A stretch of DNA of 63,996 nucleotides, the filler included, from Reclinomonas americana ATCC 50394 (taxonomy: Eukaryota), in assembly GCA_048213135.1 (NCBI GenBank). It is 14 parts of 14 records of this genome, joined end to end, with 100 filler letters (N's around TTAATTAATTAA, not from the genome) between each part and the next. Parts side by side here need not be neighbours in the genome. Positions count along the whole stretch, not along the records: positions 1 to 4,909 come from AFZH01016920.1; positions 5,010 to 9,429 come from AFZH01016921.1; positions 9,530 to 16,218 come from AFZH01016922.1; positions 16,319 to 21,063 come from AFZH01016923.1; positions 21,164 to 23,832 come from AFZH01016925.1; positions 23,933 to 26,985 come from AFZH01016926.1; positions 27,086 to 33,258 come from AFZH01016927.1; positions 33,359 to 35,500 come from AFZH01016929.1; 6 more parts are not named here. The stretch is one strand, 5' to 3'. Numbering within the stretch: the stretch's first letter is position 1; every line of letters begins with the position of its first letter. The translations under genes were made by a program, and so were the position numbers. This document shows, piece after piece, positions 1-62,499 of the stretch. Under the pieces are notes generated by a model. It was not told the DNA's origin. It saw only the letters and a list, made by a program, of their open reading frames with translations, and searched no databases.

Positions 1-1113
1 AAGCCAGAATTCATCGACACGTGCCCTTCGAACAAGGGCATGGAGTTGTCATGCTGCACGAGCAACACCTTTTCCAGTTGCGATTGGTGGAGAGCCGCGT
101 GTGTGTTTTTAATGCTTTGCTCATGGTGTGCGCTGCAGATCTCAAGATCGACTTGACGAATCGCACCACCGTGTACACGCGGGGTGTGGAGGGATTCGGT
201 GCGGCATTGGAGCGCATGGCCAATCTGGCGGCGGCCTGGGTGCACACGATGGTGACGGGTGACGACGCAACGAAGCGTCTGGCCACGGCACACGCCGACG
301 CGCTGGCCACCGTGCAGGCGTTTGTCAAGTCACGTGGTGCCGACGTCAACCGGTGCTTCACGGCCATCCAGCAGTACCTGTCGGGATTGGCGTGCCTGGC
401 GTGCCGCTCCGACTGGAGCACCTTCATGTCCACCAGTGCCACGGGCATGACCACCTTGCGGCTGGCCACGAGCACCTGCGACGCCCTGGAGGCCGGCTGC
501 ACCGGTCTGGTCGACAATTACTGGCGCGCTGTGGCCGGTATCCGTACTATTCTGGACCTGGTGACCGACTCGTCGGTGACTCGACCGTTTGAGGTGCCGG
601 CGGCGTCGCCCTGCGACGCTGTCGTCGCGCCGGCTGTGACCACCACCAGTGCCGCCACCGCGACCACCACCACCGTCACCACGCCGACCACGACCACAGC
701 GAGTGCGGTGCAATGCAGGCGTCATGTGTGCGAGACTGTGTTCCGCGGTCCGCACGTACGCCTCGCTGCACCCAAGGCGTCGTCGCAGAGTGGTGGCACG
801 AGCTCCACCACAGCGGCGGTTCTGGCTGAGGAGATGCTGGTGTTGGCCGGTGCCATGGAAGACACGACGGCGGCCACGGTCTCGAACACGTACGGCGGCT
901 CCGGTTTCGATGTGTCGACCTCGGGTGCCTCGGCAAACCTCGGTTGCGTCGCGACACAATGTCGTCTCTCCCTCCACAGCTTTCGTCTCACTCGCTTTCC
1001 ACGTCGCAGCTCCGCAACGGACCTCAATGTCGAGCGGCCACCGTTCGAATGTGTGGTTGGTTGGCGTCTGGCTGGCCACCCTCCTGGTGACCGCCGTGTG
1101 CAGTGTCATATAA
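1..1113 (+). CDS. Cys-rich, probably GPI-anchored surface protein (5' partial; folate-receptor/Frizzled-CRD-like Cys pattern)
   Basis: Splicing GT-AG introns 77-138 and 943-1009 gives an open frame: ...CPSNKGMELSCCTSN...GLACLACRSDW...LRLATSTCDALEAGC, a Thr-rich linker, and a hydrophobic C-terminus VWLVGVWLATLLVTAVCSVI*. Confidence 0.55.
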
Positions 1114-1151
1114 ACATAATGCAAGTAATGAAAACGAAGCAGATGGGATGC

Positions 1152-2352
1152 TCATTTACTGCTGGCGTCGGCAAAGAAGGCAATCTCGGCGGCCACCGGC
1201 ACATGGTCGCTGCCGTGTTGCGCATTGGGAATGCCACCACCCTCGGCTCGCAAGCTGGCGGCACTGTCGACCTGCAACACGCGCACCACGCGCGTGCCAC
1301 GCGCATCGCAGAACACGTGATCAATGGCCGAGCAGCGCCGCGGCGTCACCGTGGTGTGTGTCGGCGGGGGCGTGTACACACTACGCAGACGGCCAGCACC
1401 GCCCAGGAACTCCTCGCAGACGTACTGCACGACGCGACTGCGTGGCTCGTTATTAAAGTCGCCACTCAGCACCACATGCACCGCACCCGGCGGCCACCCA
1501 AACTGCTTCTCCCACTCGCCGAGACGCTCACGCACGTGCGCGTCGAGTTGTCGCAGCTCGGCCAGCTGCTCTTCTTCTTTCCGCGGATCCCAATACAGAT
1601 GAGTGCACACAACGAGGATGGGTGGCGGCGGCGTGGATGTGGCACCGGTGCCAGCACGCGGCTGCAGCAAGGCCAGAGCGGCCACACGATCGTGCTTATC
1701 GTCAAAGTCTACGGCGTCGGCGGCCAGCAACTCAAACTTGTCGGTGCGGAAAAACACCCCACATCCATCCTGCTTGTTGCGCCCACTCCACGACGAGTAG
1801 TGCACCGACGGTCGCCGTACATACACTGCAGCAAGGAGAACATGAGAGGCAGCAGCAAAAGCAGAAGCAGAAGCAGAAGCAGAAGCAGGCTGACCGCTGT
1901 CGAAACCGGCACTGGCGAGGTGTGGCTTGAAGAACGTCCAGTAGTCAGTGAGCTCCTCCAGGCACCACACATCGGCATCGATGGCCAGCATGCGCGACAG
2001 CAGCACCCACTTGCGCGACGACCACTCCAAGTGCTAGCACGGCGACGACGACGATCAACAAAGTTTCAAGCATCCTCACACGCATGCATTTTACCTCACG
2101 CGCGACATAGCCAAAGTACTCCGGGAGACCGAGGTTCGAGCCCAGAATGTTGTACTGGCCCACTACGCACGAGAAGGATGGTGCATTCGTGGCCGAGACA
2201 CCATCATTATCATCAGCAGCCGCGACTGTTGTCCACTGCACAGAAGGTTGTCGCGGCAATGGCGACTGCGACTGCTGCTGCTGTGAAGAGTGCAACCAGC
2301 GGCGCCCAAGGACACTGCGCACAGGCGGTGATCTAATCGCCCGCCACAACAT
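1152..2352 (-). CDS. EEP-superfamily CCR4/nocturnin/Angel/PDE12-like phosphatase-deadenylase, probably mitochondrial
   Basis: Motifs QYNIL, DADVWCLEE, DGCGVFF, THLYWDP, SGDFN, IDHVF, GSDHVPV; one intron 2034-2094; Arg-rich amphipathic N-terminus MLWRAIRSPPVRSVLGRRWLHSS. Confidence 0.85.
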
Positions 2353-2521
2353 CGTCAAAGTCGCCACTTTGGGGTTCAAGTCCCCGACCAACGGAATTTA
2401 TCATATCTTTTTATTTCGCGCGTGAGGGAGAGAAGACAACTTGACTCTTTCTGTGTGTTGTCAGAGAGCGTGCACAAAAGCATCGGAGAGAGAGAGAGCA
2501 GAGTGCAACATTTGACGAAGA

Positions 2522-4909: not shown

Positions 4910-5009
4910 NNNNNNNNNNNNNNNNNNNNNNNNNNNNNNNNNNNNNNNNNNNNTTAATTAATTAANNNNNNNNNNNNNNNNNNNNNNNNNNNNNNNNNNN
5001 NNNNNNNNN
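4910..5009. other. Artificial assembly spacer N44-TTAATTAATTAA-N44 (first of 13)
   Basis: Identical 100-nt six-frame-stop linkers also at 9430, 16219, 21064, 23833, 26986, 33259, 35501, 38111, 46187, 50205, 60875 and 62733. Confidence 0.98.
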
Positions 5010-6928: not shown

Positions 6929-8427
6929 CTAGTAGTCCTCTGCATCCACGGGCTTGGAGCGCGACTTGAGTCTGTCTGACAGCTCCGACATCATGGGGGC
7001 CATGGCCAGGGCCGGTGCCAAATCGCGCTTTCGCAGCGAGCACGCCACATCCTTGGTCTTGCCAAAGTAGATCTGTGTGCGTGCAGGCAGGCGAGTGAGT
7101 ATGCAGCAAGGCAAGAGGTGAGAGACAGTAATTATGTACCCGATCCAGCTGGTTGAACATGCTGTTCTCCAGGTCCTGCACCACGTTGCCAATGTTGACC
7201 AAATGGGCGCGGCTCTTGTCGAGCGCCGACAGCTTCAGCGTCTTGGCGTCGGTCTTGGTCAGCGAGCCCGACAGATCAATGGCGCCGCTCTCCGTCACCA
7301 CCGACAGGATAATGGTCGACACAATCTTGTACGTGAAGGCACCGTTCTCGGCCGCCGCCACATCCACCACATGAATCGCATCCCACACACCAGTCTCCAC
7401 ACTCCGCCCGCCCGCCGCCGCTGCAGAGAAGCGTGAGATGCAGTAGTACGACGCACAGCGGGCACACGCAGCGCGCAACTCTTTTTCAGCAGCACCGCCA
7501 CTGCAAACTCGCCCTCCGACTCGAATGCATACACTGAGCTCACACCGCCACCATAGTACCTGTGCGCGGGTGCGTGAGCCACTGGTGCAACTAGCACACG
7601 ACAAAGGGTATGGAGCGCAACTGCTCGCGGTATGCGCGGAACACATCGTTGGCGGCGAGCTCCAGCTCTCGCAGGTGCTCTGGTGGTGTGCGACCGTCGG
7701 GCAATGGCGGATCATATTGATTCGACCACGGCGATCTGTGTGCGTGATTCGGAACACAAAATATGAGGAAAGAGGGAGGGAGACAGTGAGAGGCCATGCG
7801 TCGTGCAGAGAGAGAGAGAGGGGAGTGTCTGCGTGTAGAGTGGCCTGACAATGGCCATGACTCTCTCTTTCTCGCTCTTACACTTCCCACTGGCTTATGC
7901 TCTTCAAGTGGAGACATGTGTGCGTGTGTGTGCGCGACTAGGTGCATGTGCGTGTGTGCGCAGAGGGGTAGAGGAGAGGCGCATGCGACGGAGGAACTGT
8001 GTGTGTGGTCGACATGTCGGAGCATCTTCACCACGCAAGCAGACACGCACACACACACACACACTCTCTCTCTCTCCTTTCACACTCACCGGTAGCTGTC
8101 CTCATCACGGTTGAATTCGCATTGAATGTACTCGGCGCCACTTTGTCTGCACACACACACAAACACATCATTGCGCGTGTTATTTCTCCTCACCATGCAC
8201 GCACATGTGCGTGTCTCTCTCTCTTTTCGTGGTGGACGCAACGGGCAGATCTGCACATCCAGTGGCTGATCCACGGTATCCAGCAGATCGGCCGCAATGT
8301 CGGGAGCAATCTGCAACACGTACGCCAGATTGTTGCGCATGTTGGCCGGCGGCAGTCTCTGCAACAGGTCCAGTGCCTTGCTCAGCTGGTCGCCACCACC
8401 GCCGCTGCCGGATGCTGGCGCAGACAT
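6929..8427 (-). CDS. CAPZB: F-actin capping protein beta subunit
   Basis: Spliced translation ALDLLQRLPP...LLDTVDQPL...[25 protein letters not shown]...YYGGGVSSVY...GVWDAIHV...LSGSLT...HLVNIG...IYFGKTKDV; 5 introns. Confidence 0.97.
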
Positions 8428-8784
8428 TGTGCTCTTGGAGGGAGAGTGTGATTGAGATGGGGTGTCCCGCATGACATCTTTCAAGGCGAAGGCGATCATG
8501 CACGCATGTGGTTCGTTGAGAACATGCTCCGGGAGAGGAAGACGAGTGGATCATGCACGAAATGGAGGCGAGGAAAGCAAACAGGAGCGGGAATGATCGG
8601 AGCGCGAAGTTCATGCCGGATTTCATTCCAAAGCCTCTCCTTCCACTGCTGGCGTCTCTGGCTGAAAGACATGGTCGTTGAGGTAGAGAGATGATGCTCA
8701 TTGTGCATACACAGCGGCTTGGCATGACAGCGGATCCAGCACGAGCACTTCCTCCTGTTCTTCTCTGCCTTTCGCAAGCCTGGC

Positions 8785-9177: not shown

Positions 9178-9254
9178 GTGAAAAACGACGAGCGGAGAAC
9201 TCCGAGTGAAATTCCCGAACACCACAACTTTTTTTGAGCCCACACAGAGAGAGA

Positions 9255-9371: not shown

Positions 9372-9607
9372 GTTGCGTTGTCAAACAACACACTCTCTCT
9401 CTCTTTGCGCTCTCTCACTCACACGTTCGNNNNNNNNNNNNNNNNNNNNNNNNNNNNNNNNNNNNNNNNNNNNTTAATTAATTAANNNNNNNNNNNNNNN
9501 NNNNNNNNNNNNNNNNNNNNNNNNNNNNNCAGACTGCATACATTAAAGACAGTTCTCGTGCGCACTGCATGAGCGTGCGATTCGGCGAGAGGAGGCAGAA
9601 ACGCCGC

Positions 9608-11837
9608 TCAGCGTCGCATGCCTTGTGAGTCGGACATGACGTTGCCGGTGACCACCGAGACGACGGGATTGTGCGGGTCGCGGCCCACCGTGTAGACGTG
9701 GAAGCCGAGCTGTCGCAATTCGACGCCGTCGATCACGTTGCGGCCGTCAAAGACAAACGCTGGCTTGCTCATGGAGGCGTAGATGCGCGGGTAGTCGAGC
9801 ACACGGAACTCGGTCCACTCGGTGAGGATGAGGATGGCGTGCGCACCGGCGCAGGCTGTGTATGCATCGGCGCACACCTCCACGCTCGACTCCAAGTCGA
9901 CATCGTCGGGTGTGTCGTGGCACTCCTCCAGGTCGCGGAAGATCTGCACGAAAGAAGGAAATGAGCAAACCACACGACAGTAACACCTGTTTCTTGCGCG
10001 CGTGTCATCCCGTACCTGGTCCTTTTGCACCTTCGGGTCGTACACGGCCAATTGCGCTCGTTCCCTCAGCATGTCGGCACACACGTAGATGGCTGCTGAC
10101 TCGCGCGTGTCGCCCGTGTCCTTCTTGAAGGCAAAGCCGAGAATCGCAATGCGCTTGCCGGCGAGCGTGTCAAACAGCGAGCGCACCACCGACTTGGCAA
10201 AGCGCTTCTTCTGGAAGTCGTTGATCTTGATCACCTGCTCCCAGTATCTGGCCACCTCCGGCAGGCCAGACGTGTAGCACAGGTACACGAGGTTGAGAAT
10301 GTCCTTCTGGAAGCACGAGCCGCCGAAACCCACCGATGGTTGCAGGAAACGCGAGCCGATGCGCTTGTCCGTACCGAGAGCCACAGATACCTGCCAGAGG
10401 TATGCGTGTGTATGTGAGAGAGTGAAGCACAGCGCACGCGATGTTCATGCGCTCTCGTCATCGCACCTCGGCACAGTCGGCGCCAACAGCCTCACAAATG
10501 GCACTGAGAGCATTGATGCTTGACACACGTTGCGCGAGGAAGGCATTGGCCGCCAGCTTGCTCAGCTCCGACGACCACAGGTTGGTGGTGATGATGCGAT
10601 CCTTTGGCACCCAGTGCTCATACAACCACGACAGGCGCTGCGGGCATAAGGGGGAGGGCGCGCGAATGAGCGACGACACGCACAGAGGGATTGTGTGTGT
10701 GTGTGAGAGAGAGAGAGAGACAGACCTCCACCGCTCGCTGTCCGTCGGGCGTCTCGCGCCCACCAATCAGCACACGATCCGGCTCAAACAGGTCGCGAAT
10801 GGCCGTGCCCTCCGCCAAAAATTCCGGATTCGACAGCACCTCCACCGTGTGGTCTGCAGTGGCGTTGGCCGCAAAGATCTTGGCCAGCGTCTCCGACGTG
10901 CGCACCGGCACCGTCGACTTCTCCACCACCACTACGAAGCACACACAATGAGTAACACGATTGTGCGCACACCCGGCGGACGCGACAGCTGCATTCACCC
11001 TTGAAGCCGGGGCCGAGGTTGGCCACCAGCATGCGCGCCACACGCTCCACGTTCTTCACCTCGGCCGCACGTCCCTCGCCCACACCGTAGTGCTTGGTCG
11101 GTGTGTTCACCGCCACAAAAACCACATCGGCATCGCGCACCGTTTCCTCCACCTGATTTCCATCATCACCGTCAGTGTCATGTGAACTGCTCCAACTCCT
11201 GCTCCCCACTCACACACACATGTACACACAGACACACACATGCAGAGGCAAGTCGTGCAACACACACACGTGGAATCACACCTCGGAGATGCAAAGTCAT
11301 GAGAGCAAACTGACACACACGCACGCACGCACGTGTCGTGCACACGCGTGTACAGGCACACACACACGCACAAGGAGGAGAAGGGAAAGTAATGCGTGTG
11401 TGAGAGTGTGTGACAAGAAAACACAACTTGAGATGAGAAGAACAGATTGCGACCGCGGCATTCCATGACGACCTCCTCCAGTTGCGGCTCATAGATCGGC
11501 AGCTTGTCAGAGTTCCACTTGTCAATGAGTGCTGCACACACACACGCACAGAGAGAGAGAGGTCAGAGTGTGTCCGCGAGAGAGAGAGAACTGCTCAGTG
11601 AGGAAAGAGACCTTGATTCAAGTCCACCACGTGCACTTGCACGTCCGGCGACTTGAGCGCCATCACAGCCATTGTGGGGCCGCCTAGTGTGTGTGAGAGT
11701 GAGTGAGAGTGTGCGAGTGAGTGTGAGTGAGAGGAGGGAGCGAGTGTAGATGAGCATGTCGGCCACTCACCGACGTAGCCGGCGCCGACACACACCACCT
11801 TGCGCACAGGGGGGATATCTACAGAGGAGGCCGACAT
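9608..11837 (-). CDS. UGDH: UDP-glucose 6-dehydrogenase
   Basis: [86 protein letters not shown]; 7 GT-AG introns. Confidence 0.98.
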
Positions 11838-14526: not shown

Positions 14527-15795
14527 ATGCATCTGCTTGCCGTCCGTCGCTTCGCCACCAGCAGTGCGTTTCCCTTCCCGCTTGAGTACCTCTCTGCTCT
14601 GATCGCGATCTCTCATCACCTGCTGTCTGTCTGTCTGCTTGTGTTGGCCTGCGCGACGGACAGCCGTGTCTGCCGGCGCTGTGTCCGAGCGGTTCCTGCT
14701 GCGCTCACTGCTCTTTGTGCCGGGAAACTCAGAGAAGATGCTGCGCAAGGTGATGACGCCAAATGCATCCGTGGTCGATGCACTGGTGCCCGACTTGGAG
14801 GACTCGGTGGCCACGGTGGAGCAAAAGGTGGCAGGGCGACAGCTCCTTGCGCAGTTGCTGCCGGAGCTGCGTGCGAGCGGCAAGTGTGCGTTCTTGTGAT
14901 GGCATGCATGCATTGCATTCGCAGATGACTGATGATCGGATGGTGAAGACGTCATTCCGCGCTTCAACTCGGTGCACAGTGGGCTGCTGGAGGCCGAGTT
15001 GAGTGCACTGGTGGGTCCGCACATTGACGCGGTGCACATTGGCAAGATCGACTCAGCGGAAGATGCGAATCGTCTGTGTGAGGCGGTGGAGAGGGCGGAG
15101 CGCGCCAGTGGGATGCCAGTGGGCTCGTTGCCGGTGCTGCCGACCATTGAGAGCGCGCGGGCGGTGATGGACGTGCGGGAGATTTGCGTGGCGTGCGGGC
15201 CACGGCTGCTGGGACTGGCATTCGGCTGCGACGATTGTTGCGCGCACGCGCTTTTCTCTGGCGTTGCCGAGATCGCCTGACTGACTGACTGACTGTGTCG
15301 AGCGCAGATGCCAGTGACTTGGGCATTGATCGCACCCTCGAGGAGCGAGAGATGGAGTACGCACGCCACGTGATTGGTGTGGCCGCTCGGGCATTCGGTG
15401 TGCTGGCCATTGACACACCACACACGCAGTTTCGCGACCTGGACGCACTCAAGTCCATGACTGAGCGCTCGAAGCAGGCCGGCTTCACCGGTCGTCTGTG
15501 CAGTTTTGTCGTGTCGACAACGGCGTCGCCCACCACGTGTACCTCACCATCCTCGTCTCCCACAGTTCACCCCTCGCAACCCGCCATTGTCAACGCCGTC
15601 TTCTCGCCGTCGGCCTCACAAGTCGAGTTTGCACGTGCCGTCGTGGCGGCCTACGAGGAGAGTGTGCAGCGGGGTCGCGGCTCGACGCAAATTGAGTGGC
15701 GTGGTCACCCGCGCATGGTGGACAAGCCGGTTGTGTTGCAGGCGCAGCGTGTGCTGCAAGCACACTCCAAGATCGCAACCCCCAAGAAGGACTGA
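14527..15795 (+). CDS. CitE/HpcH-HpaI aldolase family (citrate lyase beta-like, CLYBL-like), mitochondrial presequence
   Basis: RSLLFVPGN, DLEDSVA, TIESARAV, AFGCDDYASDLG, AIDTP, GFTGRLCIHPSQ, MVDKPV after removing 4 introns; N-terminus MHLLAVRRFATS. Confidence 0.92.
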
Positions 15796-50367: not shown

Positions 50368-51086
50368 CTCCAGTGCAATACCCGTTCTGCAGCAGTGCAC
50401 GCGAGACGTCAGTTTGTTTACCAAGAAACGCAGCTGCAGCGCGAGAGAGAGAGAGAGAGAGAGACGCAACTTTCTGGCCAGCGTGCGAAAGTGCTCCGAC
50501 TTGGAGGCCTTGTAGATTTCCGAATGGTGCGCCGTCTCGTGCAACTTGCGGCCCCCACTCGTCTCAAACAACCGCAAACACTCCTCCGCCCTAATCACAC
50601 ACGCACACACAGAGTCGGTCCTCCACGTTATTGCAGCGTCCCTTTTCTCTCTCCCTCCAGCCTACCACTCGGGCTCATCGCAGCAACTGACCCACGCCAC
50701 CGTGACGCCCTCCCAGTGATCCGCCGTGTGCAACTCGTGCAGGATGTTCTGCGAGTCGCCCATCAGATTGACTTTCTGGCCCTTGCGATCGACTAGTTGC
50801 CCGCTGTGCTTGCCGCTCTTGAAGGGAGCTCCCCCGCCCCACAGCTGGTACATTTCCGGGTACCATATGGTGCCGTCTGGGATGAGCAGGGTGAGACAGA
50901 GAGAGAGAGAGAGAGAGAAGGAGGCATGCGCACATGAATGCATGCACACAGGCACTCACCGAGATCAAATGCCACCAGCTTTGGTCGCACGTGGAGGCGT
51001 GCGGCAGTGGATGACGAGGAGGAGGAGGAGGAGGAAGCCATTCTTGTGTTGATGGGTGTCAACAGTCGTGCCGCGAATGGCAGCAT
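50368..51086 (-). CDS. MDP1: Magnesium-dependent phosphatase 1 (HAD IIIC), 3' partial
   Basis: PKLVAFDLDGTIWYPEM, GAPF, VS..DEPEWA, EIY..SK..HF..L..KTGI. Confidence 0.9.
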
Positions 51087-52636: not shown

Positions 52637-55600
52637 TTATCTTCTGGGGGCGGCGGCGGCAGCAGCAGCAGCCCCGGCTGGAGCAGGCGGTGCTGTATCG
52701 GCGTGCAACGACCGGTACACGTCGGCAAACTGAGCCGAGGTCAGAATGCGCCGCACCGCAGCACCAAACACCTTGTCCGACTGACACCGACAAACAAACA
52801 GCGTCAACTAACAACAACAACAACAAGCAAGAGAATCAAAGAACCCACCTCCAACACGCCCTCCTTGGCCGTGTTGTAGGTCGTCGAAAAGATCTCCACA
52901 ACGCGATCAATGGTCGACTCGATGGCCTGTTGAGTACGCCAGTGAGCGAGAGTGCAGAAAAGAAGAGAGAAAGCAGTGTGTATGCATGCATGCCTGGCGT
53001 GTCTCCTCAGTCGCCAGACGGCCCACGAACTGCAGCCATAGCCTGAGGTCCAACACAAACTGGTTGACCGCTGCGAGGGAGGTTCTCGAGGTCAAACAAG
53101 CGCACTCACACTAAATGAAAAAGACACACGTACCTGGTCTCGTAATGGTGACTCCCGTGGACTCGCCGTCGAGCCCGAGCGATACCCACAAACCACAGCG
53201 AGGGTCGGCGATAAAGTGTGCCGACTCCTCCACAAACTGCGTGAGAACCTCACTGATGCTCATGGAGCGGCGGTCCATGAAGAAGGGTCGCATCGACACG
53301 GCCGCGTCACTCAGAATGTGGCACACTTCGCCAAAGAACGAGGTCGGGGCCGCCTGTGCCGGGTCGGAGAACGGATGCTGTGGGCGAGAGACGCGCGCTC
53401 AGTCGACGGTGCACAGCATCCACCCCAGCACCACACACGAATGGAACGCAACGTCGGGATACGGACGAGCCGGTGGAAGCAAGTGGACTTTGGCCAGGCG
53501 CGTCAGCACCATGTGCATGTAGTCCGAGTGGAAGTCTCGCTCGCTGTTGCACAGATACTTGCGTAGTCTGTCCAGCTCCGGAATGTTTTGCTTCAGACGA
53601 CCCTGCATTCACGCACGACAGTGTGAAAATCAAAACCGTGGTGATCAAGCTGTGCGGCTCAGGCACGGAACCTTAAAGTCTTCAATGACGCGCGGCAGCA
53701 GGTCGTCGGTCATCGACACCACATTGGAGATCATGGCAAAGTACTGCGAGACAAAATACAGTTAGCGACACAAGCAAGTCGAGACGCGCACCGATCCAAC
53801 AACACTCACATGCGAGTGCTCCACGAACGGACACGAGTCGACCGAGAGCAGGTCGGCCAGACGCGAAATGTACTCGTCAAACACCGTGTTGATGCCACCG
53901 ACCACCTCCGAGTAAATCTGTGCGGCACAGGAGAGGTGGTGAGCAGAAACTCAACAGACGATGAGCGCATGAGAAGGGAGCGCGCCTCGGTGGACAGGAT
54001 CTTGGAGAGGTTGTGTGCAAACGACTCGGTGAGGTGGTAGATGGTGCGGCCGCTGGCGGTCAGAATCACACGCTTCTCCGTGTGCTGATCTCCGACGTCC
54101 TGCATCACCGGAACTTCACCAGCCTCCCAGGTCTCGGCAGCGAGAGACGACTTTGCGGCACACATGGAAAACGGGTGAGCGATCGGGCGAGACGAGGCCA
54201 ACAACAGAGAAAACTGCTTGTGCACCTTGACTTCGTCGCGCATGGTGCCGACCACGTGCTGAATGGCACCAATGAGGTCCCGCTTGAACAGCTGCTTGAG
54301 GTAGTAGTTGAGCGAGAGTCCCTGCTTCTCCAGCTGCCATGCGGGATCGGTGATCAACAAAACGCGGAAAGAACGAGAGAGTGAGGCCGAGACGAGACAT
54401 ACCGACTTGCAATGGCGATGTGCAATCTGCAGGCATCGAGCGGTTGTCTCGAACGCATCCGACAAGAACACTTGTGAGTGCAGCATCTCCGCAAACAGCT
54501 CCACCTCGCCGACGGCCCACGCAATCAGTGCTACACAAGGCCACCGTCAGCATCCCAAGACACTCTGTTATTCGTCGCACCACATTGTGTGCACGCAACT
54601 GGAAAAGTCCGACGTCTCGACCGAGAACAGCTGGCGGAACTCCTTGGCCGTGTTGTCGAGCGTGGAGAACACCAGGTACGAGATCTCGTCCGTGTACTGC
54701 AAAATGTCGCCCTGAAACTTGAGCTTGCGCACTTCGGAGCGGATCGACGTGGATCGGCTCTGCAAGAAGACAGCGCGCGCCTCGCTCGTGCGACCGAGTT
54801 TCACCAGCAGTACGACGATGCGCCGCGCCTCCAGTGTATCCAATGCCGGCACCCTGCACAGCACCACCGGTGGTGTTACTGCGGGGTGACGCTCGAAACA
54901 ACACCGACAACAACAACACCGACGCAACTGCAGCATGCTGAAGAGGGCACGGATGAGGCGGTCGCGACGTGCATCGAGTTGTGCGTGCAGACCCTCGACA
55001 TCAATCGACTTCCACTGGATGGCCGTGACTCGATCTTCACGACTGACTTTCTGGCCGGCGTTGCGCTTCGAGTACGAGGCCGCTGCGGGAACCATGGTTG
55101 ACGACGAAGCGCCACCGGCACCTGCACTCGCAGTCACCAGTCCGCCGGCGGTCGGTATGACAGCCGATGACGCTGCGGCAGCCGGCTTCACGGCACTCGG
55201 CGCCGAGTCGAGAATCGTGTATCCCTCCTCCAACAGCGCCAGTGCCTTCTCGTACAGCAGGCACGCGAGAGCCACGTCGACCTCGTCGGGAATGTCGCGC
55301 AGGTGTTCCAGCTCCTCCGACACCTCGGTGGCAGCCCTCGGCAAGCGGTAGTTGGCTGCACACATGCAAGTGTAAGCCGTGCGTGCGAGTGTATGTGTGA
55401 TGAGATCGAGCGACAAGCCTTCTTCCGGGTTCTCAAAGGCGAACCGCACATCACGAGACACGCGCAGAAAGTTGGCGGTCTCGCTCAACAGGTTGCCCAG
55501 TTGCATCATCTGCTGCTCCATGGCTGCTCACACGCAAAATGAGTCGTCGTCGTGCTCACACACATGCACAGCGCAAGGCGAAAACCAACCTGAGATCTCA

Positions 55601-56027
55601 CGCGCAACATCAATGAACACTCGATACTCCTTGTGCACTGCGCAAGAGAGTGAGCATGTTGGATCTCTCTGAGTGAGAGAGAGAGAGGGCGAAACGGAGG
55701 CACACCATGCTGCTTGAGTTGTTGCGACAATGCCGCCTTTTCTTCGCGCAATCGTCGCAGATGAATGCGAACGCGTCCATCCGTCTCTTGCTCAAACCTC
55801 GCCTGTGAGTCTGCACTCGAGCACGTGTTATTCGTATGTACACACGCGCGTGCGTGTGCTGCATGATGCACGCAACAATCAATGGGATCAAAGTCGCCTC
55901 TGGCAAACTGGCGATGACTGACAGTGTCGGAGACGGCACGAGCGACGGGTGCGCCTCCAGACGAGGAGGAGGTCACCCCAGAGCGCATGTCTGGTGGGCC
56001 TGTGCTGCCCGCACGAGTGCGTCGCAT
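52637..56027 (-). CDS. EXO84: Exocyst complex component Exo84/EXOC8
   Basis: Vps51/Exo84 N-terminus FDPIDY...LKQHVHKEYRVFIDVAREISAME; LRDIPDEVDVALA; LVKLGRTSEARAVFLQSRS..IR...L...GD...Y; LIAWAVGE; LEKQGLSL; about 13 introns. Confidence 0.85.
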
Positions 56028-56205: not shown

Positions 56206-58677
56206 TCAGCCGACTTCTCTTCTGCCACAAGCGTGCTTCCCTGACAAACGAACCACAACGAGGGAGCTCATGTCGCGCAGCTGCTCCGTCCACGGACCAG
56301 GCTTGCCCACCATGGCACGCAAAGACAGGCCACTGCCGACTTGGTGGCCGTCGAACCAGTCGAAAACCAGGCGCCCAAGCCGACCGTGGTAGTCGATGAG
56401 ATGCTGCAGCAGCATCTGCTCGTTGTGGGTGCTCCAGTGCACGTCGAGCAGGCCGAGTAGGTGCGTCACGAGTCGCATGGAGAACTGTGTCGGCCGCAAC
56501 GTGAAGACGCCGACATTGGCGGACATGTAGCGTCGTTGGTCGCCACAGACGCGCGTCACCCACGGAGGCGGTAACACGCTGCGACCCACCGTGTAGTTCC
56601 ACGGCGCGCGACGCCGCTCGCTCGTCGGCGTGCCCACCGTTTCCGCAAAGTCCATGGCCTCCCAGAGAATGTCGACTTGCGCTAGCAAGTCGGGGGCGGT
56701 GTGCTCGTAGTCTGCGTCGGCCAGCGCCGCGATGTTGGACAGGTGGCCGACAAACACCGCATCGACGTCCATGTGGAACGGTCGGTAGCCGCAGCGCAGC
56801 AGCATGTAGGCGTAGAGCCACTTCAGATTGATGGCGGCCGGGTACGACATGGGCAGTGGGCCGCGACCCTGCGACCTGCGATTGCCACGAGAGTGAGCAT
56901 GACGGAATGTCGCAAGAGAAGAAAGTGCGTGCGTGTGTGGATGCATGCAAGTACCAGCCACTCTGATCGAGAAAAGCGAAAGCAGGCTTGCCGAGTGAAG
57001 CCAGCAGCCGCAGCACTGTTTCGTGTGTCAACTGGTCCTCGCAGACAATCAGTGGCATCACGTGGTCGCCGTGATACATCCAGAAATGCAACAGCCAGTT
57101 GTGCGTCAGCTGCAACCAAGTGACGCTGTCGACGCCGGGTTCCAATTTCAGAATAGTGTACACGACAAAGCGATCGCTGCTGCCGGCGACCGTCAACACC
57201 AACGGGTGCGTTGTGAGGTGACGCGCGAGACGCGCCAGTTCGGCACGGTTTTCCCGGAAAGCCGATTCAATGGGGAAGAGCGACTGCGGCGCAGCACCGT
57301 GCGGGCGACCGACGGACGCCACCGCCTCAATCAGTGACCTGGGGGTCGTCAGCACCCTCCACAGGTGCGACTCGGTGCGCTCGCAGAACTCGTCGGCGTA
57401 CAGCTCGTAGAGTGGTTTCGCCGGTTGATCGCTGCTGTCGTCATTACTGTCAGCCACTCCCTCTGGTACAGATGATTGGCGCACCACCAGGCTGCGGTCC
57501 ACACGAGAGGGATCCGGCAGTGGTGGTGGCGGTCTCCAGAGGCCACGTGCGGTAAACACGCGACCAAAGTGCTCCCTCGCACACGATTCATCTCGACTGG
57601 CCAAACACAACGCAAGGGCGATTTGTGTTCGCGAACCGCGAGAGAGTGCGCCCGTCAACAGCTGTCTTCCGCGCGACCAGTCGGCAAGCATGGCACGGTC
57701 AACGTTGCTCGCAGTCGGCAACGTCGGGTCCGTGCGTGTGGGAGAAGCAACAGGCAACGTCCAGTGGCGTGGTCTCTGCGGACGTGAGGGTCAGCATTGT
57801 AGCCTACCTGTCACAATTGCTCGACTCACTAAGCGCACCACCGGCACGTGCACGCGGAGGGCACACACAAAGTCGCGGACGACGAGCAGATCCGGGTCCG
57901 CACCGACGAGGTTGGTCCACGCAATCTCCGCCAGTTTATCTCTCGACCAGCCAGTCCGCTCTGCGAACGCCACGACTACCACACCACGCCATGCCTCAGC
58001 ACACATGGAAACCCCGCCTCCAGCAGCACAGCCTTGGCACACAAACCTGTCTCGCGCACAGACTGTGCGTCGCCAAACATCACATCGTGCGACTGCTGGC
58101 CACGAACAATAACACGCCATCCCACCTGCGATCCGTCCACAGCATCCCGCGGCGCATCAAAATACAACAGTGGCTCCTGCAGCGTGCTGAACAAGTACCC
58201 GCAGCCGATCGCAGCCGCTCGTTCTCTCTACGATACATGCGTCGGCGACAAGTGCAATGCCAAGATATTCCGCCCTCAACACACCATCAGAAGCCGATAA
58301 GCACGCTGCTGTAGCGATGCGCCCCCGTGGCCCGCAAGCGTCACTGTGTGGCACACGATGATCAACAAATCATGCGGAGAAACCAGCCACCGCTCTCATC
58401 CGTGCGCAACATGCATCGCCCAACGTCGTCGACTGTTGCACATGCGTGTGCTTGCCTGTGTGGCGCATGATTATTATGCACGCAAGCTAACGACGCTTTC
58501 TTGACACACACACTTGATTGGCAAACCTGTGATCTCACTCAGCAGTCGCGCGACTGTCTCACTGCCGAGAGTGCGCACAAACGGACGCAGTGGAACTCCT
58601 CCCAGCTGCTGGCCGTGTACATGGACGACAACAAGAGCGACAACTGCAAGGAGCACGAGAGACACAGCTCTCAGCAT
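56206..58677 (-). CDS. Secretory-pathway GT-A glycosyltransferase (nucleotide-diphospho-sugar transferase, GT77-like C-terminal domain)
   Basis: Signal/anchor MLRAVSLVLLAVVALVVV; C-terminal K...LL.CGY...MDVDAVF (DxD), NVGVFTLRPT, NEQ motifs; N-terminal exons only partly resolved. Confidence 0.65.
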
Positions 58678-58729
58678 GCGAAAAAAGGCAAGTCCTGAAG
58701 GACAGTTGCTTGTGTGTTGGACGAGTCGA

Positions 58730-60874
58730 ATGTGGAGCATCGACCGCGCAGTGTTGCAAGCGGCGCACGAGTGGGCAAGCAGTGGAGACCGCCGATGCGC
58801 GTGGCTGGTGTCACCAGACTAGTTGCGCGCGCACACATGCACACACACGCACACTGCATTGCATGCTGACACTCACACACAGCAACAAGACCGCCATTGT
58901 GTGGCTTGTGCGATGCGTGTCGGCTGACTTGGAGCACGAGTGGCACGAGAGCAACTCTCTCTTGCCGGCGGGAGTGAGCATCTGTGGAATCGTCTCTCCC
59001 AAACGCGTCAATGTGCCAGCCTCGGTGTCTCTGGGACTCGTGCACGGTGTTGTCGACAGCGGTGCTTCACCAGTCGCGTGGTCTGTGGCTGGTGTGGAGG
59101 CAGTGGACCAGCTGGCAGTGCACGTGTTGCGTGAGGCTGTGTGTGTGGCCACGAGGACCACTCTGCGATCAGCGCGCTTTGTGCCGCGAGCGACGCATGC
59201 GATGCCTGTGGGTGTGCCGACGGCACTGGTGGCGCTGGCGGGGCGACGAGCGGCGACACCGGTGCAGCAGGTGTGGTCGGCGGCGGCAATGGAGTTGCCG
59301 AGTGGTCGTGTGGTGCGTGTCCTCTGTGAATAGTGTTTTTTCGCTGCGTCTCACTGCCGCCGGCAGGGCGTGCCTTCGTGCGTTCCGCTGGCGCTGCTGT
59401 ACTCGGTCGGCCAGCCACCTGCGGCGCAGGCGCAACCAGGAGGCGGAGTTTGTGCCGTGCGCAGCAGCAGCACCGTCAAGGATGCCGACAGCAATCGTGT
59501 ATTGTCGTTTGACTGCGTGGCCGTGGCCGTGGTCAAGGCCGACGAGGCGTCGACTGCCGAGGCAGTGAAGGCACTGGAGGCCAGCATGCGCCGACAAGTG
59601 GAGTCTGTTGGCGGCGAGGTGATGTCGACGGATTGCATGCATGTCCCTGTGTTTGTATGTGCGGAAGCTCACAAGCAGTCTCGCAGACGCAGCGTCTTCG
59701 CTCGTGCTGGTTCCAGCCGTCGCACGATTTGGTGGCCGCGGCCGCAGGCGCAGTGCCGCCACCGTTCCCCATTTGTCGCCAGTTTGCCGACAATGAGCAA
59801 GACAGTGCGGACAGGCGGCGTGAGGTGCATGTGCGTTGCAGTTTGCCGGACGACCGACCCTTTGTGAGACAGGCGCAGGCGCTGGACCTCGTGGAGTCTA
59901 GTTGCGTGCCTCCCATCCCCATTGCACGGATTGTGCACGCGTGCTGACATTTGCTGTGCTGACAACAGCAGCAGCGACGGCAGCCACGTCCACGGCGAAA
60001 TCAGCTGCGGTCGACGGTGGTGCCGGTTCATCATCGGCCGCGCCTTCACTGCAGCGGCGATTGCAGAACGTGCACACGACGCTGGCGCTGCCCGAGCTCG
60101 CCGGCAACCCCACAGTGTCTCTCGTGCGTGGCGTGTACGACTATTACCACTACAAGCAGGACTCGTTCGACGACGATGGCTGGGGCTGTGCGTACCGCTC
60201 GCTGCAGACCATTTGCTCGTGGTTTGTCCGACAGGGCTATCTGGAGAGCGATGGTCGCATCCCAGAGGGGTGCGTCCATGTATTGAGACGCGTTGTGTCG
60301 TCCTTTTCTGAACACCACCCACATGCAGATTTGTTGCCGTGGGAGTGCCGTCTCATCGCACCATCCAGGAGACACTCGTCAAGGTCTCCCCTCACATCCC
60401 TCTTCCCTCCTCCTTTCTCGCCCGCTGCTGACGAGTGGTGACGGAACGCAGGCGGGCAGTGCTCAGCGGTCACTCATCGGATCGCGACAATGGATCGGCT
60501 CACAGGAGGTGGGCACATGCTGCGAGAAGATCCTCGGCATTGAGTGGCGCGTGCACAACATGAGCCGCGGGTCGGAGCTGAGCGACATGAGCTGTGCGCG
60601 CGTGGTGCAAAACCATTTTGAGACGCAGGGCTCGCCCATCATGATTGGTGAGTTGTGGTAGGCGGTGAGCACTCGCTCGACTCCCGCCCTCCGACTGACA
60701 CCAAAAATGCAGGCGGTGGACAGTACGCGTACACGATCCTCGGCGTCGCCTTCAACGACGTCGGCGACGTGCGGTACCTGATCCTGGATCCTCACTACGT
60801 GGGCAAGGACGCGCTGCCGGCCATCTTCAAGTGGGGAGGTGTGGCATGGTTCCGACCGGCAGACAAATTCGATC
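58730..60874 (+). CDS. UFSP2: Ufm1-specific protease 2 (peptidase C78), essentially complete
   Basis: [70 protein letters not shown]. Confidence 0.95.
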
Positions 60875-60974
60875 NNNNNNNNNNNNNNNNNNNNNNNNNN
60901 NNNNNNNNNNNNNNNNNNTTAATTAATTAANNNNNNNNNNNNNNNNNNNNNNNNNNNNNNNNNNNNNNNNNNNN

Positions 60975-62499
60975 CGTGCTGCGGAAGCAGAGAGTCGTGC
61001 AGGGCTGCTCCGCCTCCAGCCGCACTGGCACGCTTGCTCCTTCCGCGGTGTGATCGACACAAGAGGCCTCGGAGGAACTGCCACCACTTGATGAAAATGG
61101 GAAGTGCCAGCACTGCACAGGCCACACCGAGGATACTGAGGCAGACGATCTTCTTGGCGCCGTCATCGATTGCAGAGGTAAAGACGCCGGCAATCGCCGT
61201 CAGACACATTAGACCAAAGGCCTACTCATGGTGTTTCGTCAGTAAACACGCCAACATGCATGCACTCTCTTCCAACATACGCACCTCTAGATAATTGTCC
61301 ATGTCGTGGTGGAACGCCTGACACCACGAGTGAACGAGCAGGCACACCGCGCATACACACCACAAGCCAAACGACAGATTGTCTGTGTGGCCAGTCGCCG
61401 CCATCGCAAAGAACACGGCGAGGAAAATGAAGCGCCGGTACAACTGGTAACTCTCGTACCACACGAAGCGCGGTTTGAAATGTGAGTACAGGCCGCCGAA
61501 ACGTCTCTTGAAAGACTCGTCTTGCAGCCGTGCCGGGTTCGCTGTGCGCAAGCGCACAAAAATCCATCCGGAGATGGCTGGCGCGGCCGCCGTCACCAGG
61601 AACACGGTGCCGTACAGAATCAGCAAGTAGAAGTAGGAGCCAGAGCACTCGATACTGGGCTTCAGCAGCACAACGCGCGTCTCGTCGACCGGGGTGCACG
61701 TGAAGTAGCTCAGGCACGTCTCCCCGATGCCCTCGAATGCGCCGACACCGAGCACCACGGTTGTGCTGATGTAATAATCGGGCGCAGCAGTGCGCGTGAA
61801 CCAGCGTAGCACGCGTCCACACAGGCCAGTGCGCTTGCGACTTGTAGTGCCGCTCCGGTGATCCGCGGTGCAGCACCGCAGCGCCCACGCCAGCGTTCTG
61901 TGAGACACAAAGAGCAGCCACAAGAGCGCCACATACACCAAGGGCATAATGAGGTGCCACGCCATGCTCAGCTGCGGAGAGACTGGGAACGGGCAATGCT
62001 CGTTGCCGAAAGCAGGCACCCAAAAGTTGACAATCCTGGCGCACATGTTTCGCAGGGTGGTGAGTATGCAGTAGAGCTATCAAGATATCTTGCTTTTCCG
62101 TTTGCATCTCCCTTTTCCCAATCATACACGCAACTTGCTCAGACTCAGCAGTTCAATGTTGGGATAGAACAGCAGCGCCGTAGTCTGCATCTCGAATAGG
62201 ATCATCTTTGTGGATCCGGCAACCTCGCCCTGTGACAACAGATGCTGCAAGCACGTGCAATCACTATGTGAGGCACGAGAATTCAACTAGAGGGGGCACA
62301 CGCACATTCATCGAACCTGCACGAACACAATGCCGAGCGCACGGGCAAACATGAACGCAGTAGCACCGGCATTGGCCGAGGGGCACTCGATGCACTCAGC
62401 GTTCCACTCCGAGTATCCTGCGCACATCACCATTTGTGCGTCAGAAGTCAACTCAGTACCGTTTGCAATCCGGGCGCAATACACTCTCATCGTGAGCAC
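60975..62499 (-). CDS. Multi-pass membrane protein of the protist Cys-rich + TRP-like/7TM type (both ends unresolved)
   Basis: GYSEWNAECIEC; YFTC...PSIEC; RFGGLYSHFKPRFVWYES...RR; QAFHHDMDNYLE; several hydrophobic segments. Confidence 0.65.

What the first reader, a model, noticed from the sequence alone, without database searches (positions are those of the whole stretch)
77..62134. A major class of +1-shifted 5' splice sites (N|GTTGCGY): possible variant donor-recognition system
Seen: restoring conserved reading frames forces donors whose usual +3..+6 motif (GCGT/GAGT/GTGT) is displaced one base by an extra T. First intron bases: 77, 943; CAPZB 7479, 7621, 8242; 9372; UGDH 11427 (GTTGTGT); CitE 15237, 15503 (GTTTTGT); GARP 19376, 20935; lectin 22029, 22495, 22949; ABCA 25694; ATP12 29117 (GTTCCGC); MO25 33034; kinesin 34728, 34937, 35163; DAW1 36820, 37055, 37924 (GTTTCGT); DUF4349 39760 (GTTGAGT), 39979; RBM39 42439, 42884, 43257; 44398, 44837; MDP1 50470; Exo84 54599, 54928, 55876; UFSP2 58822, 59901; 62134. 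That is 37 sites, roughly a quarter of my estimated 130-140 introns, and 34 of 37 lack G at exon position -1. Several are pinned by conserved residues (CitE GCDD-Y-ASDLG and RLC-I-HPSQ, kinesin AST-N-MN, ABCA LKQ-Q-FG), and at 58822 splicing removes an in-frame TAG. Known: rare mammalian /GUUAAGU donors are read by U1 in a shifted or bulged register (Roca and Krainer). Inference: here this register is a mainstream class, implying altered or duplicated U1/U6 snRNAs or relaxed U6 ACAGAGA-box geometry. I do not know of a description at this frequency.
Basis: partly seen in the sequence, partly recalled or inferred. Interest (0 to 1): 0.92.

Follow-up and report, generated by a model that had tools for sequence, protein, structure and literature searches.

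The report
One-base-shifted GTTGCG splice donors
About a quarter of the short introns in this stretch begin with GTTGCGY, which looks like the organism's ordinary donor signal read one base out of step; in human genes such out-of-step readings are rare.

Summary
All 37 listed bases start a GTT on the stated strand: 32 GTTGCG and 5 variants, and 34 of 37 lack G at -1.

I wrote a gene parser that knew nothing about donors except "GT". It chose 30 of the window's 86 GTTGCG hexamers as donors, against a base rate of 1.7% per GT (p=4e-31). It almost never chose one-letter variants. It hit 30 of the 37 listed sites.

Protein evidence fixes cleavage before the G at 11 listed sites. Pfam profile positions or alignments to homologues run across the junction with no gap.

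These introns have the same length, branch motif, acceptor and phase spread as the others, and share no further sequence.

Their exon -1 base matches the -2 base of ordinary donors (p=0.87) and differs from their -1 base (p=3e-11). GTT donors with G at +5 keep G at -1. The ordinary A-G-G-T-G-N-G-T pattern is therefore read one base out of register.

Whether a normal U1, a variant U1 or another factor does this could not be tested. No genome, snRNA gene or RNA run was available. The class is 24-29% of about 145 introns. I found no published description.

The parts
8147..8242 (-). CAPZB intron, donor CC|GTTGCGT
   Evidence: PF01115 positions 47 -> 68 are bridged exactly by split codon + 18-aa exon + split codon
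7560..7621 (-). CAPZB intron, donor CA|GTTGCGC
   Evidence: Profile 104 -> (split codon 105) -> 106, no gap
7421..7479 (-). CAPZB intron, donor A|GTTGCGC
   Evidence: Profile continuity within one position, in a variable loop; in all parses from then on
11153..11427 (-). UDP-glucose dehydrogenase intron, donor AA|GTTGTGT
   Evidence: PF03721 positions 68/69 -> 70/71 continuous at a phase-0 junction
15237..15307 (+). HpcH/CitE-like gene intron, donor T|GTTGCGC
   Evidence: PF03328 153 -> (154) -> 155/156 continuous
15503..15565 (+). HpcH/CitE-like gene intron, donor A|GTTTTGT (parser preferred GTCTGTG at 15494)
   Evidence: Pfam alignment of the open frame runs on to profile 218 of 221, i.e. 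three residues past 15494 up to 15502; parsers chose 15494
33034..33107 (+). Mo25 intron, donor GG|GTTGCGT
   Evidence: PF08569 129/130 -> (131) -> 132 continuous
35092..35163 (-). kinesin-1 intron, donor GA|GTTGCGT
   Evidence: Gap-free against close relative P0121, which shares the lineage-specific loop
34873..34937 (-). kinesin-1 intron, donor TC|GTTGCGC
   Evidence: Gap-free against 15 of 16 homologues; P0121 has one extra residue; Pfam skips 2 profile positions here
34670..34728 (-). kinesin-1 intron, donor CA|GTTGCGA
   Evidence: PF00225 193 -> (194) -> 195; gap-free in the 16-homologue alignment
34458..34544 (-). kinesin-1 intron, donor GA|GTTCGTG: GTT donor in the ordinary register (G at +5), control
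   Evidence: PF00225 237 -> 238; gap-free
42439..42500 (+). RBM39-like intron, donor GA|GTTGCGT
   Evidence: Gap-free against P0243 across the junction in the second RRM
42884..42948 (+). RBM39-like intron, donor AA|GTTGCGT
   Evidence: Gap-free against P0243 (NMFDP.. block)
43257..43328 (+). RBM39-like intron, donor CT|GTTGCGT
   Evidence: Same length as P0243 up to the shared FPQ
54531..54599 (-). Exo84 intron, donor CA|GTTGCGT
   Evidence: PF16528 153/154 -> 157, one profile position skipped
77..138 (+). intron, donor A|GTTGCGA
   Evidence: Final parse; no homology test
943..1009 (+). intron, donor G|GTTGCGT
   Evidence: Parses; no homology test
19376..19784 (+). intron, donor C|GTTGCGT (409 nt)
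   Evidence: Parses
20935..21004 (+). intron, donor C|GTTGCGT
   Evidence: Parses
21957..22029 (-). Cys-rich repeat ('lectin') gene intron, donor T|GTTGCGT
   Evidence: Parses; no similarity to the two sister introns beyond the motif
22420..22495 (-). same gene, donor T|GTTGCGT
   Evidence: Parses
22878..22949 (-). same gene, donor C|GTTGCGT
   Evidence: Parses
25628..25694 (-). ABC transporter gene intron, donor A|GTTGCGT
   Evidence: Parses; Pfam does not reach the junction
29049..29117 (-). ATP12 gene intron, donor A|GTTCCGC
   Evidence: Parses; junction lies upstream of the Pfam domain
36820..36965 (+). DAW1-like WD40 gene intron, donor A|GTTGCGC
   Evidence: Parses
37055..37111 (+). DAW1-like gene intron, donor A|GTTGCGC
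   Evidence: Parses
37924..37984 (+). DAW1-like gene intron, donor G|GTTTCGT
   Evidence: Parses
39760..39824 (+). DUF4349 gene intron, donor A|GTTGAGT
   Evidence: Parses
39979..40036 (+). DUF4349 gene intron, donor T|GTTGCGT
   Evidence: Parses; upstream exon matches PF14257 to its last residue
44335..44398 (-). intron, donor C|GTTGCGT
   Evidence: Parses
44770..44837 (-). intron, donor A|GTTGCGA
   Evidence: Parses
50387..50470 (-). MDP1-like (Acid_PPase) gene intron, donor A|GTTGCGT
   Evidence: Final parse; downstream exon is cut by a gap
54854..54928 (-). Exo84 intron, donor A|GTTGCGT
   Evidence: Final parse
55811..55876 (-). Exo84 intron, donor T|GTTGCGT
   Evidence: Parses
59901..59971 (+). 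UFSP2-like (Peptidase_C78) gene intron, donor A|GTTGCGT
   Evidence: Parses; gene lost in the strand merge; junction lies in unconserved sequence
61898..62134 (-). intron, donor A|GTTGCGT (237 nt)
   Evidence: Parses
   Evidence: Final parse
27335..27398 (-). further intron, donor T|GTTGCGT
   Evidence: Parses
47103..47177 (+). further intron, donor T|GTTGCGT
   Evidence: Final parse
53378..53452 (-). further intron, donor C|GTTGCGT
   Evidence: Final parse
58344..58410 (-). further predicted intron, donor T|GTTGCGC; weak gene model
   Evidence: Final parse only; lies among tiny exons that conflict with the plus-strand UFSP2 gene
53603..53671 (-). further intron, donor G|GTTCCGT
   Evidence: Parses
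9372..9378 (+). listed GTTGCGT with no supporting gene model
   Evidence: Motif present; no gene predicted on the plus strand at 8600-9429; 58 nt from a gap
58822..58828 (+). listed GTTGCGC with no supporting gene model
   Evidence: Motif present; the plus-strand parse starts the gene at 59202

Best explanation
These are genuine GT-AG spliceosomal introns, cut immediately before the G of GTTGCGY. They form a second donor class, and they use the same branch site (CTSAC, 11-32 nt before a CAG acceptor) and the same ~70-nt length as all other introns here.

The class signal A|GUUGCGU is the organism's ordinary signal AG|GUGNGU with the third letter changed from G to U. The scissile bond therefore sits one base further upstream relative to the shared pattern. 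Whatever reads that pattern first, most likely the 5' end of U1 snRNA, sits one nucleotide out of its usual register. The cut is then placed by the later recognition of the GU itself (U6, U5, Prp8).

Shown: the boundaries, the class frequency, and the one-base offset of both intron-side and exon-side preferences.

For: Boundaries:
- 11 listed GTT donors are gap-free against Pfam profiles or homologues, and ordinary donors in the same genes behave the same way.
- Of 42 class introns in the final parse, 22 carry an in-frame stop and 12 more would shift the frame if retained.

Class reality:
- GTTGCG is chosen as donor 30/86 times by a donor-blind parser (p=4e-31), while one-letter variants are chosen 0-1 times.
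- In the final annotation, 35 of 50 sense-strand GTTGCG within genes (35 donors, 9 in exons, 6 in introns) are donors. The figures for GTGCGT are 11 of 62 and for GTGAGT 11 of 30.
- GTTGCG is rarer on the sense strand of exons (9) than on the antisense strand (22).

Register:
- Logo correlation peaks at offset +1.
- The -1 composition of the GTTG class (A18 C8 G4 T13) equals the -2 composition of other donors (A37 C15 G13 T25, p=0.87) and differs from their -1 (p=3e-11).
- In the donor-blind parse, GTT donors with G only at +6 have G at -1 in 4 of 36, and those with G only at +5 in 8 of 10 (p=7e-5). Non-donor GTT sites show no link.

Hand count against the U1 5' end AUACUUACCUG, as printed in PMC4856993:
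- shifted register: 5 Watson-Crick pairs + 1 wobble
- ordinary register: 2 + 1
- bulged register: 4 + 1
Against: - No RNA evidence was available.
- The organism's own U1, U5 and U6 are unknown.
- C at +5 (79% of the GTTG class; 35 of the 42 shifted-class donors) is not explained by pairing to a standard U1, which has pseudouridine opposite it. The equivalent +4 of ordinary donors shows no C preference (A30 C34 T30), even among those lacking G at -1.
- A U6 pairing shifted in the same way would predict cleavage one base downstream. The protein data exclude this, so an unobserved bulge at the U6 step must be assumed.
- 8 of 42 class introns stay open in frame.
- The final parse was trained on its own output, so I rest the statistics on the donor-blind parse where possible.
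- 24 of the 37 listed sites have only parser support.
Confidence: 0.58

Rival explanations
1. A dedicated reader: a second U1-like snRNA (or a divergent sole U1) whose 5' end is fully complementary to A-GUUGCGU, roughly ACGCAACU. The GTTGCGY class would then be a perfect-match substrate and not a mismatched, shifted one.
For: The class motif is far more constrained than the ordinary one at every position: C79 at +5, G85 at +6, T69 at +7. The C at +5 is unexplained by a standard U1. GTTGCG is highly specific as a donor, with 35 of 50 sense-strand occurrences within genes being donors.
Against: No snRNA gene could be examined. From recall, the U1 5' end is among the most conserved RNA sequences in eukaryotes. 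A variant U1 would still bind one base out of step with respect to the cut, so this rival refines the main reading and does not replace it.
Confidence: 0.25
2. Bulged register: U1 pairs in its normal register with G+1 and U+2, one U (+2 or +3) is flipped out, and pairing resumes at GCGU.
For: Single-nucleotide bulges at +2/+3 are validated registers in human cells (PMC4856993, passages seen). This register needs no change of frame between U1 and the cut.
Against: In this register exon -1 still faces U1 C9, so G should remain favoured. It is instead depleted to 4 of 36, against 8 of 10 in GTT donors with G at +5 and 58-71% in other donors. The -1 composition copies the ordinary -2.
Confidence: 0.1
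3. Misplaced boundaries. The real donor would be another site, for example GC-AG splicing at GTT|GCGT, the second GT in GTTGC|GT, or cleavage after the G with a compensating acceptor shift.
For: Without an acceptor model the parser took the +5 GT at five sites (948, 22944, 25689, 37929, 54923). An offset of 3 keeps the frame, so open reading frames alone cannot exclude it.
Against: An offset of 3 would add one residue at every junction, yet 11 junctions are gap-free against profiles or homologues. Ten of the 35 GTTGCG donors in the final parse have C or A at +7 and so have no second GT. Offsets of 1 or 5 change the frame or need non-AG acceptors.
Confidence: 0.03
4. A family of introner-like mobile elements that brought their own GTTGCGY end.
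For: A sharply conserved intron terminus shared by many introns is what young introners show (recalled).
Against: Class introns share no more sequence with each other than other introns do: mean longest common substring 5.67 against 5.66, and 5.60 across classes. They have the same length, branch motif, acceptor and phase spread. The three introns of one repeat-rich gene do not align beyond the motif. An old origin of this kind cannot be excluded and would not change how they are spliced now.
Confidence: 0.03

Closest known systems
Shifted-register U2-type 5' splice sites of mammals (Roca and Krainer 2009, as described and cited in PMC4856993; example oligo ACA/GUCAAGUAUA)
   Same: GT-AG introns whose pairing to the U1 5' end is better when every pair is moved by one position. 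U at +2 faces U1 C8, and cleavage still occurs at the GU.
   Different: In humans all validated noncanonical registers together are estimated at about 1.5% of 5' splice sites (PMC4856993, discussion passage). Here the class is 24-29% of introns, has its own tight consensus GUUGCGY including an unexplained C at +5, and is the single most specific donor word in the window.
Bulged and asymmetric-loop 5'ss/U1 registers (PMC4856993); non-canonical U1 and U6 registers proposed for the STAT3 tandem donor (PMC11162779, listing and abstract start only)
   Same: One extra nucleotide between the GU and the downstream paired block.
   Different: The exon-side statistics here argue for a shift and not a bulge at the stage that reads the exon. 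A bulge may still be needed at the U6 stage.
Two major 5' splice-site classes, AG//GUNNN and //GURAG (PMC9803359 and PMC11842720, listings and abstract starts; PMC11732430, passages)
   Same: Donors fall into an exon-anchored class (G at -1, loose intron side) and an intron-anchored class (no G at -1, tight intron side), and the two are anti-correlated.
   Different: The intron-anchored class here is not GURAG but GUUGCGY, one base longer. Ordinary donors here keep G at +5 in about 80% even when -1 is G.
Lineage-specific donor consensuses: GTGCGTG in Ostreococcus outside chromosome 2 (PMC2483917, passage); GUUUGU in Entamoeba (recalled, not checked)
   Same: A genome can settle on an unusual, tight donor word.
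   Different: Those are single consensuses in the ordinary register, with G at +5. Here two registers coexist within the same genes.

Membership tests
U2-type GT-AG spliceosomal introns | Removal of GT...AG restores the conserved reading frame and protein | tested here: met
   11 listed junctions are gap-free against Pfam profiles or homologues, and 2 more are within one position
U2-type GT-AG spliceosomal introns | Branch-site motif a short distance upstream of a YAG acceptor, as in the genome's other introns | tested here: met
   CTSAY-type motif near the 3' end in 74% of the GTTG class against 81% of non-GTT introns; C at -3 of the acceptor in 38 of 43 against 75 of 90; median length 69 against 72 nt
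Shifted-register 5' splice sites | More base pairs to the U1 5' end when shifted by one than in the ordinary register | tested here: inconclusive
   Hand count against the human U1 5' end printed in PMC4856993: 5 WC + 1 wobble shifted, 2 + 1 ordinary. The organism's own U1 is unknown.
Shifted-register 5' splice sites | Exon-side and intron-side preferences displaced by one position relative to ordinary donors | tested here: met
   Class -1 equals ordinary -2 (p=0.87) and differs from ordinary -1 (p=3e-11); best logo correlation at offset +1; +6G/+5G against -1G, Fisher p=7e-5
Shifted-register 5' splice sites | Rescue of donor mutants only by U1 suppressors designed for the shifted register | not testable with these tools
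   Needs a minigene and suppressor U1 in the organism or in a surrogate cell
Bulged-register 5' splice sites (bulge at +2/+3) | Exon -1 still pairs with U1 C9, so the G preference at -1 is kept | tested here: not met
   G at -1 in 4 of 36 (donor-blind parse), 4 of 43 and 3 of the 37 listed sites
U12-type (minor spliceosome) introns | Donor RTATCCTT and branch TCCTTAAC (recalled definition) | tested here: not met
   None of the 55 GTT donors begins GTATCC; the branch motif is the same CTSAC as in other introns
Introner-like mobile introns | Sequence similarity among copies beyond the splice signals | tested here: not met
   Longest common substring 5.67 within the class, 5.66 among others, 5.60 across; three introns of one gene do not align
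GC-AG introns (reading GTT|GCGT) | Exon keeps GTT, so the product is one residue longer at each junction | tested here: not met
   Gap-free junctions under the GT reading at 11 sites

The most novel reading that the evidence does not exclude
This lineage runs two donor-recognition systems side by side within the major spliceosome. The ordinary one reads AG|GUGNGU. The second is dedicated to A|GUUGCGU and is read by a variant U1-like snRNA (5' end about ACGCAACU) or another specific factor. Catalysis then proceeds with an obligatory extra nucleotide between the GU and the U6-paired block. That would be a third natural intron class, defined at the donor alone.
Probability: 0.25. Interest if true: 0.9.

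Novelty: new variant of a known kind. Interest (0 to 1): 0.7.

Why it matters
How the spliceosome fixes the exact cut when U1 pairing and the GU disagree has been studied only on rare human sites and on engineered reporters. A genome in which roughly one intron in four uses the out-of-step form, next to ordinary donors in the same genes, offers hundreds to thousands of natural test cases.

It would show:
- which snRNA or protein changes allow the out-of-step form
- whether U6 tolerates a bulge as routine
- how the exon-anchored and intron-anchored donor classes evolve

It also matters practically. Gene finders trained on a single donor matrix will mis-set a quarter of the exon boundaries in this organism and break reading frames.

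Tried and rejected
- **RNA evidence:** no RNA holder was listed for window:38211-46186.
- **Whole genome:** none is held, so genome-wide logos and snRNA searches were impossible.
- **Rfam:** no match at gathering thresholds. At E<=1 there were only weak miRNA-like and scaRNA-like hits and no snRNA.
- **Protein searches:**
  - A WD40 exon of the DAW1-like gene brought only bacterial multi-repeat proteins, useless for junction tests.
  - The RBM39 linker exon found nothing by word search and 3 proteins by the exhaustive search, of which 2 were usable.
  - No 100%-identical protein appeared in the kinesin search, so no public gene model for this gene could be compared.
- **Relatives:** a metagenome scan with the lineage-specific kinesin exon gave only 48-57% identical loci, L001-L004, which I did not use.
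- **Lineage:** the Atlas does not hold the window's ATP12 exon. For homologue P0121 it returned only generic kinesin clusters. The lineage stays unknown. Plasmodiophora brassicae was considered and is unlikely, because its reported introns average 55.7 nt with weak branch motifs (PMC2483917 table), against a 71-nt median and a strong CTSAC motif here.
- **Literature:** two full-text searches for GTTGCG/GUUGCG, alone and together with splice, intron and donor, returned primers and unrelated sequences in the listed hits. None of the 45 listed titles concerned a donor consensus. The Roca and Krainer 2009 paper is not held.
- **First parser attempt:** long open frames could not seed the coding model, because 214 ORFs of at least 130 codons total more than the window. 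Pfam-matched stretches were used instead.

Full report
**What the window is.** It is 63,996 nt at about 58% G+C. Thirteen 100-nt linkers (N44-TTAATTAATTAA-N44) split it into 14 pieces of 2-8 kb. Genes stop at the linkers and unrelated genes follow: the DAW1-like gene is cut at 38108 and a TPR gene begins after the gap. The pieces are therefore probably separate small contigs of a fragmentary eukaryotic assembly. No whole genome is held, no RNA run was listed, and the window holds no Rfam match at gathering thresholds and no snRNA match even at E<=1.

All 37 coordinates carry GTT at the stated base and strand: 29 GTTGCGY, 3 GTTGCGA and 5 variants. Only 943, 33034 and 37924 have G at -1. GTTGCG occurs 86 times on the two strands.

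**An independent, donor-blind annotation.** I wrote a small generalized-HMM gene parser.
- The coding model was seeded from 6.7 kb of Pfam-matched frames and then self-trained.
- Donors were any GT at a constant penalty.
- With nothing else, it predicted 112 introns. GTTGCGT was the commonest donor 7-mer (13), and 18 of the 37 listed sites were hit exactly.
- Those introns revealed a tight length peak, with 67 of the 112 at 45-120 nt. They also revealed a branch motif near the 3' end: CTCAC 26 against 4 and CTGAC 21 against 1 in the last ~40 nt compared with the rest of the intron, mostly 11-32 nt from the AG.
- I added an acceptor matrix, this branch motif and the length profile, and left donors blind. 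This gave 148 introns with a median of 71 nt. Of these, 52 start GTT and 30 start GTTGCG, against 10 GTGCGT and 9 GTGAGT. It hit 30 of the 37 listed sites.
- Against the base rate of 148 donors among 8702 GT sites, 30 of 86 GTTGCG gives p=4e-31. One-letter neighbours are not chosen: GTTGCA 0/60, GTTGCT 0/62, GTTGCC 1/34, GTCGCG 1/100, GTGGCG 0/114.
- A final round with a two-matrix donor model gave 145 introns, 55 GTT and 35 GTTGCG, and hit 33 of 37 listed sites. This round is trained on its own output, so I use it for coordinates and use the blind round for statistics.

**Is the cut really before the G?** I translated each predicted exon on its own and scanned the translations against Pfam (67 exons). 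Profile positions then run across the junctions, with one position reserved for the split codon.
- CAPZB: 47 -> 68 across two junctions and an 18-aa exon (donor 8242, plus an ordinary GTGAGT donor); 104 -> 106 (donor 7621).
- UGDH: 69 -> 70 (donor 11427).
- HpcH/CitE: 153 -> 155 (donor 15237).
- Mo25: 130 -> 132 (donor 33034).
- Kinesin: 193 -> 195 (donor 34728).
- Donors 7479 and 54599 are off by one position in loops.
- Ordinary donors in the same genes are equally continuous (kinesin 68 -> 70, Mo25 91 -> 92, RRM 27 -> 28, Acid_PPase 74 -> 76).

A MAFFT alignment of the spliced kinesin with 16 kinesin-1 homologues shows no gap at 35163, 34728 or the GTTCGTG donor 34544. At 34937 there is no gap against 15 of the 16; P0121, a close relative that shares two lineage-specific insertions, has one extra residue there. 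The RBM39-like gene is gap-free against P0243 at 42439, 42884 and 43257.

These results exclude three alternatives:
- the frame-preserving GTT|GC reading, which would add one residue at every junction
- the +5 GT
- cleavage after the G

At 15503 the parser preferred a GT 9 nt upstream, but the Pfam alignment of the open frame runs on through three more residues to profile position 218 of 221. Site 59901 is used when the plus strand is parsed alone. Sites 9372 and 58822 have no gene model and remain untested. For 24 of the 37 listed sites the only support is the parser.

**They are ordinary introns in every other respect** (GTTG class n=43, non-GTT n=90).

| Feature | GTTG class | Non-GTT |
|---|---|---|
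| Median length | 69 nt | 72 nt |
| Branch motif present | 74% | 81% |
| C at acceptor -3 | 38 of 43 | 75 of 90 |
| Phases 0/1/2 | 12/18/13 | 37/33/20 |

- They share no more sequence with each other than other introns do (longest common substring 5.67 against 5.66).
- Three class introns in one repeat-rich gene do not align beyond the motif.
- If retained, 22 of 42 would bring an in-frame stop and 12 more a frameshift; 8 stay open.
- In the final annotation, 35 of the 86 GTTGCG are donors, 9 lie in exons on the sense strand, 22 in exons on the antisense strand, 6 in sense introns, 3 in antisense introns and 11 in unannotated sequence. Among sense-strand occurrences within genes, GTTGCG is a donor in 35 of 50. 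The figures are 11 of 62 for GTGCGT and 11 of 30 for GTGAGT.

**The one-base offset.** Ordinary donors with G at -1 (n=56, blind parse) read:
- -2: A43 C23 G11 T23
- -1: G
- then G T
- +3: G70
- +4: A30 C34 T30
- +5: G80
- +6: T50

The GTTG class (n=39) reads:
- -1: A38 C21 G13 T28
- then G T T G
- +5: C79
- +6: G85
- +7: T69

Written as patterns, these are A-G-G-U-G-N-G-U and A-G-U-U-G-C-G-U. They are the same word with one letter changed, cut one base earlier. Three tests support this.
- Logo correlation between the classes is 0.59 (blind) or 0.64 (final) at offset +1, against 0.25 or 0.17 at offset 0 and lower or negative values elsewhere.
- The class's -1 composition is indistinguishable from the -2 of other donors (p=0.87) and very different from their -1 (p=3e-11). 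Its -2 resembles their -3 (p=0.77).
- There is an internal control. In the blind parse, GTT donors with G only at +6 have G at -1 in 4 of 36, while GTT donors with G only at +5 (GTTCGT, GTTTGT, GTTGGT) have it in 8 of 10 (Fisher p=7e-5). Non-donor GTT sites show no such link (34 of 236 against 51 of 299).

So T at +3 does not define the class. The register does.

**Mechanism.** The exon-side shift argues that the factor reading exon -2/-1 together with the intron block sits one nucleotide out of register with respect to the cut. This is the shifted U1 register described for rare human sites (PMC4856993 passages, citing Roca and Krainer 2009, which I could not read).

By hand, against the U1 5' end printed in that paper, A|GUUGCGU makes 5 Watson-Crick pairs and a wobble when shifted, 2 and a wobble in the ordinary register, and 4 and a wobble with a bulged U. 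A pure bulge model predicts a retained G preference at -1, which is not seen. Because the cut is still at the GU, the later U6/U5 steps must accept one extra nucleotide between the GU and the GCGU. This last step is inference.

**What does not fit.** The strong C at +5 is not explained by a standard U1. It is also absent from the equivalent +4 of ordinary donors, including those without G at -1. This is the best argument for a dedicated reader such as a variant U1 complementary to AGUUGCGU. I cannot test that here.

**Comparison with what is known.**
- In humans, validated noncanonical U1 registers are put at about 1.5% of 5' splice sites (PMC4856993). Here the shifted class is 24% (36 of 148) to 29% (42 of 145) of introns.
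- The split into an exon-anchored and an intron-anchored donor class resembles the two major classes described for animals and plants (PMC11732430 passages; PMC9803359 and PMC11842720, listings only). The intron-anchored word here is one base longer.
- The 45 titles listed from two full-text searches for the motif as a splice signal held nothing relevant.
- The organism could not be placed.

**Verdict.** The shifted-register reading is supported by sequence statistics. The snRNA part is untested. I classify it as a new variant of a known kind, at a frequency not described in anything I could find.

Noticed in passing
window 4910-5009, 9430-9529, 16219-16318 and ten more: Thirteen identical 100-nt linkers (44 N, TTAATTAATTAA, 44 N) join the pieces. 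Genes are cut at them and unrelated genes follow, so neighbouring pieces need not be neighbours in the genome.
   Followed up: partly
whole window; e.g. introns 7421-7479, 7560-7621, 35092-35163: Introns are very uniform. The median is 71 nt, with a CTCAC/CTGAC branch motif 11-32 nt before a CAG acceptor. Many contain (GT)n, (CT)n or (CA)n runs.
   Followed up: partly
exons throughout: GTTGCG is under-represented on the sense strand of predicted exons (9) relative to the antisense strand (22). Control hexamers are balanced (GCTGCG 40/47, GTCGCG 30/36). This suggests selection against cryptic donors.
   Followed up: partly
window 33359-35442 (-); protein P0121: The kinesin-1 gene carries two lineage-specific insertions, a 7-residue loop after the P-loop region and 4 residues before HIPYRDSKLT. 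Among the 16 aligned homologues only P0121, an unnamed 1061-aa protein from an ENA assembly, shares them. It may come from a related organism.
   Followed up: no
window 63546-63737, both strands: Weak matches on both strands to plant miRNA precursor models (MIR533, MIR408, mir-9201; 25-31 bits, against gathering scores of 64-95). This is probably a low-complexity or hairpin-prone stretch and not a miRNA.
   Followed up: no
window 39796 (+), 42641 (+), 28220 and 28253 (-), 34466 (-), 44079 (-): Six GTTGCG lie inside predicted introns on the sense strand. Some may be alternative or decoy donors, for example 39796 inside the intron that starts at 39760.
   Followed up: no
   Followed up: partly
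window 9608-14312 (-): My parser fused a protein-kinase gene and the UDP-glucose dehydrogenase gene into one 15-exon model. Gene ends in my annotation are unreliable even where the introns are good.
   Followed up: no
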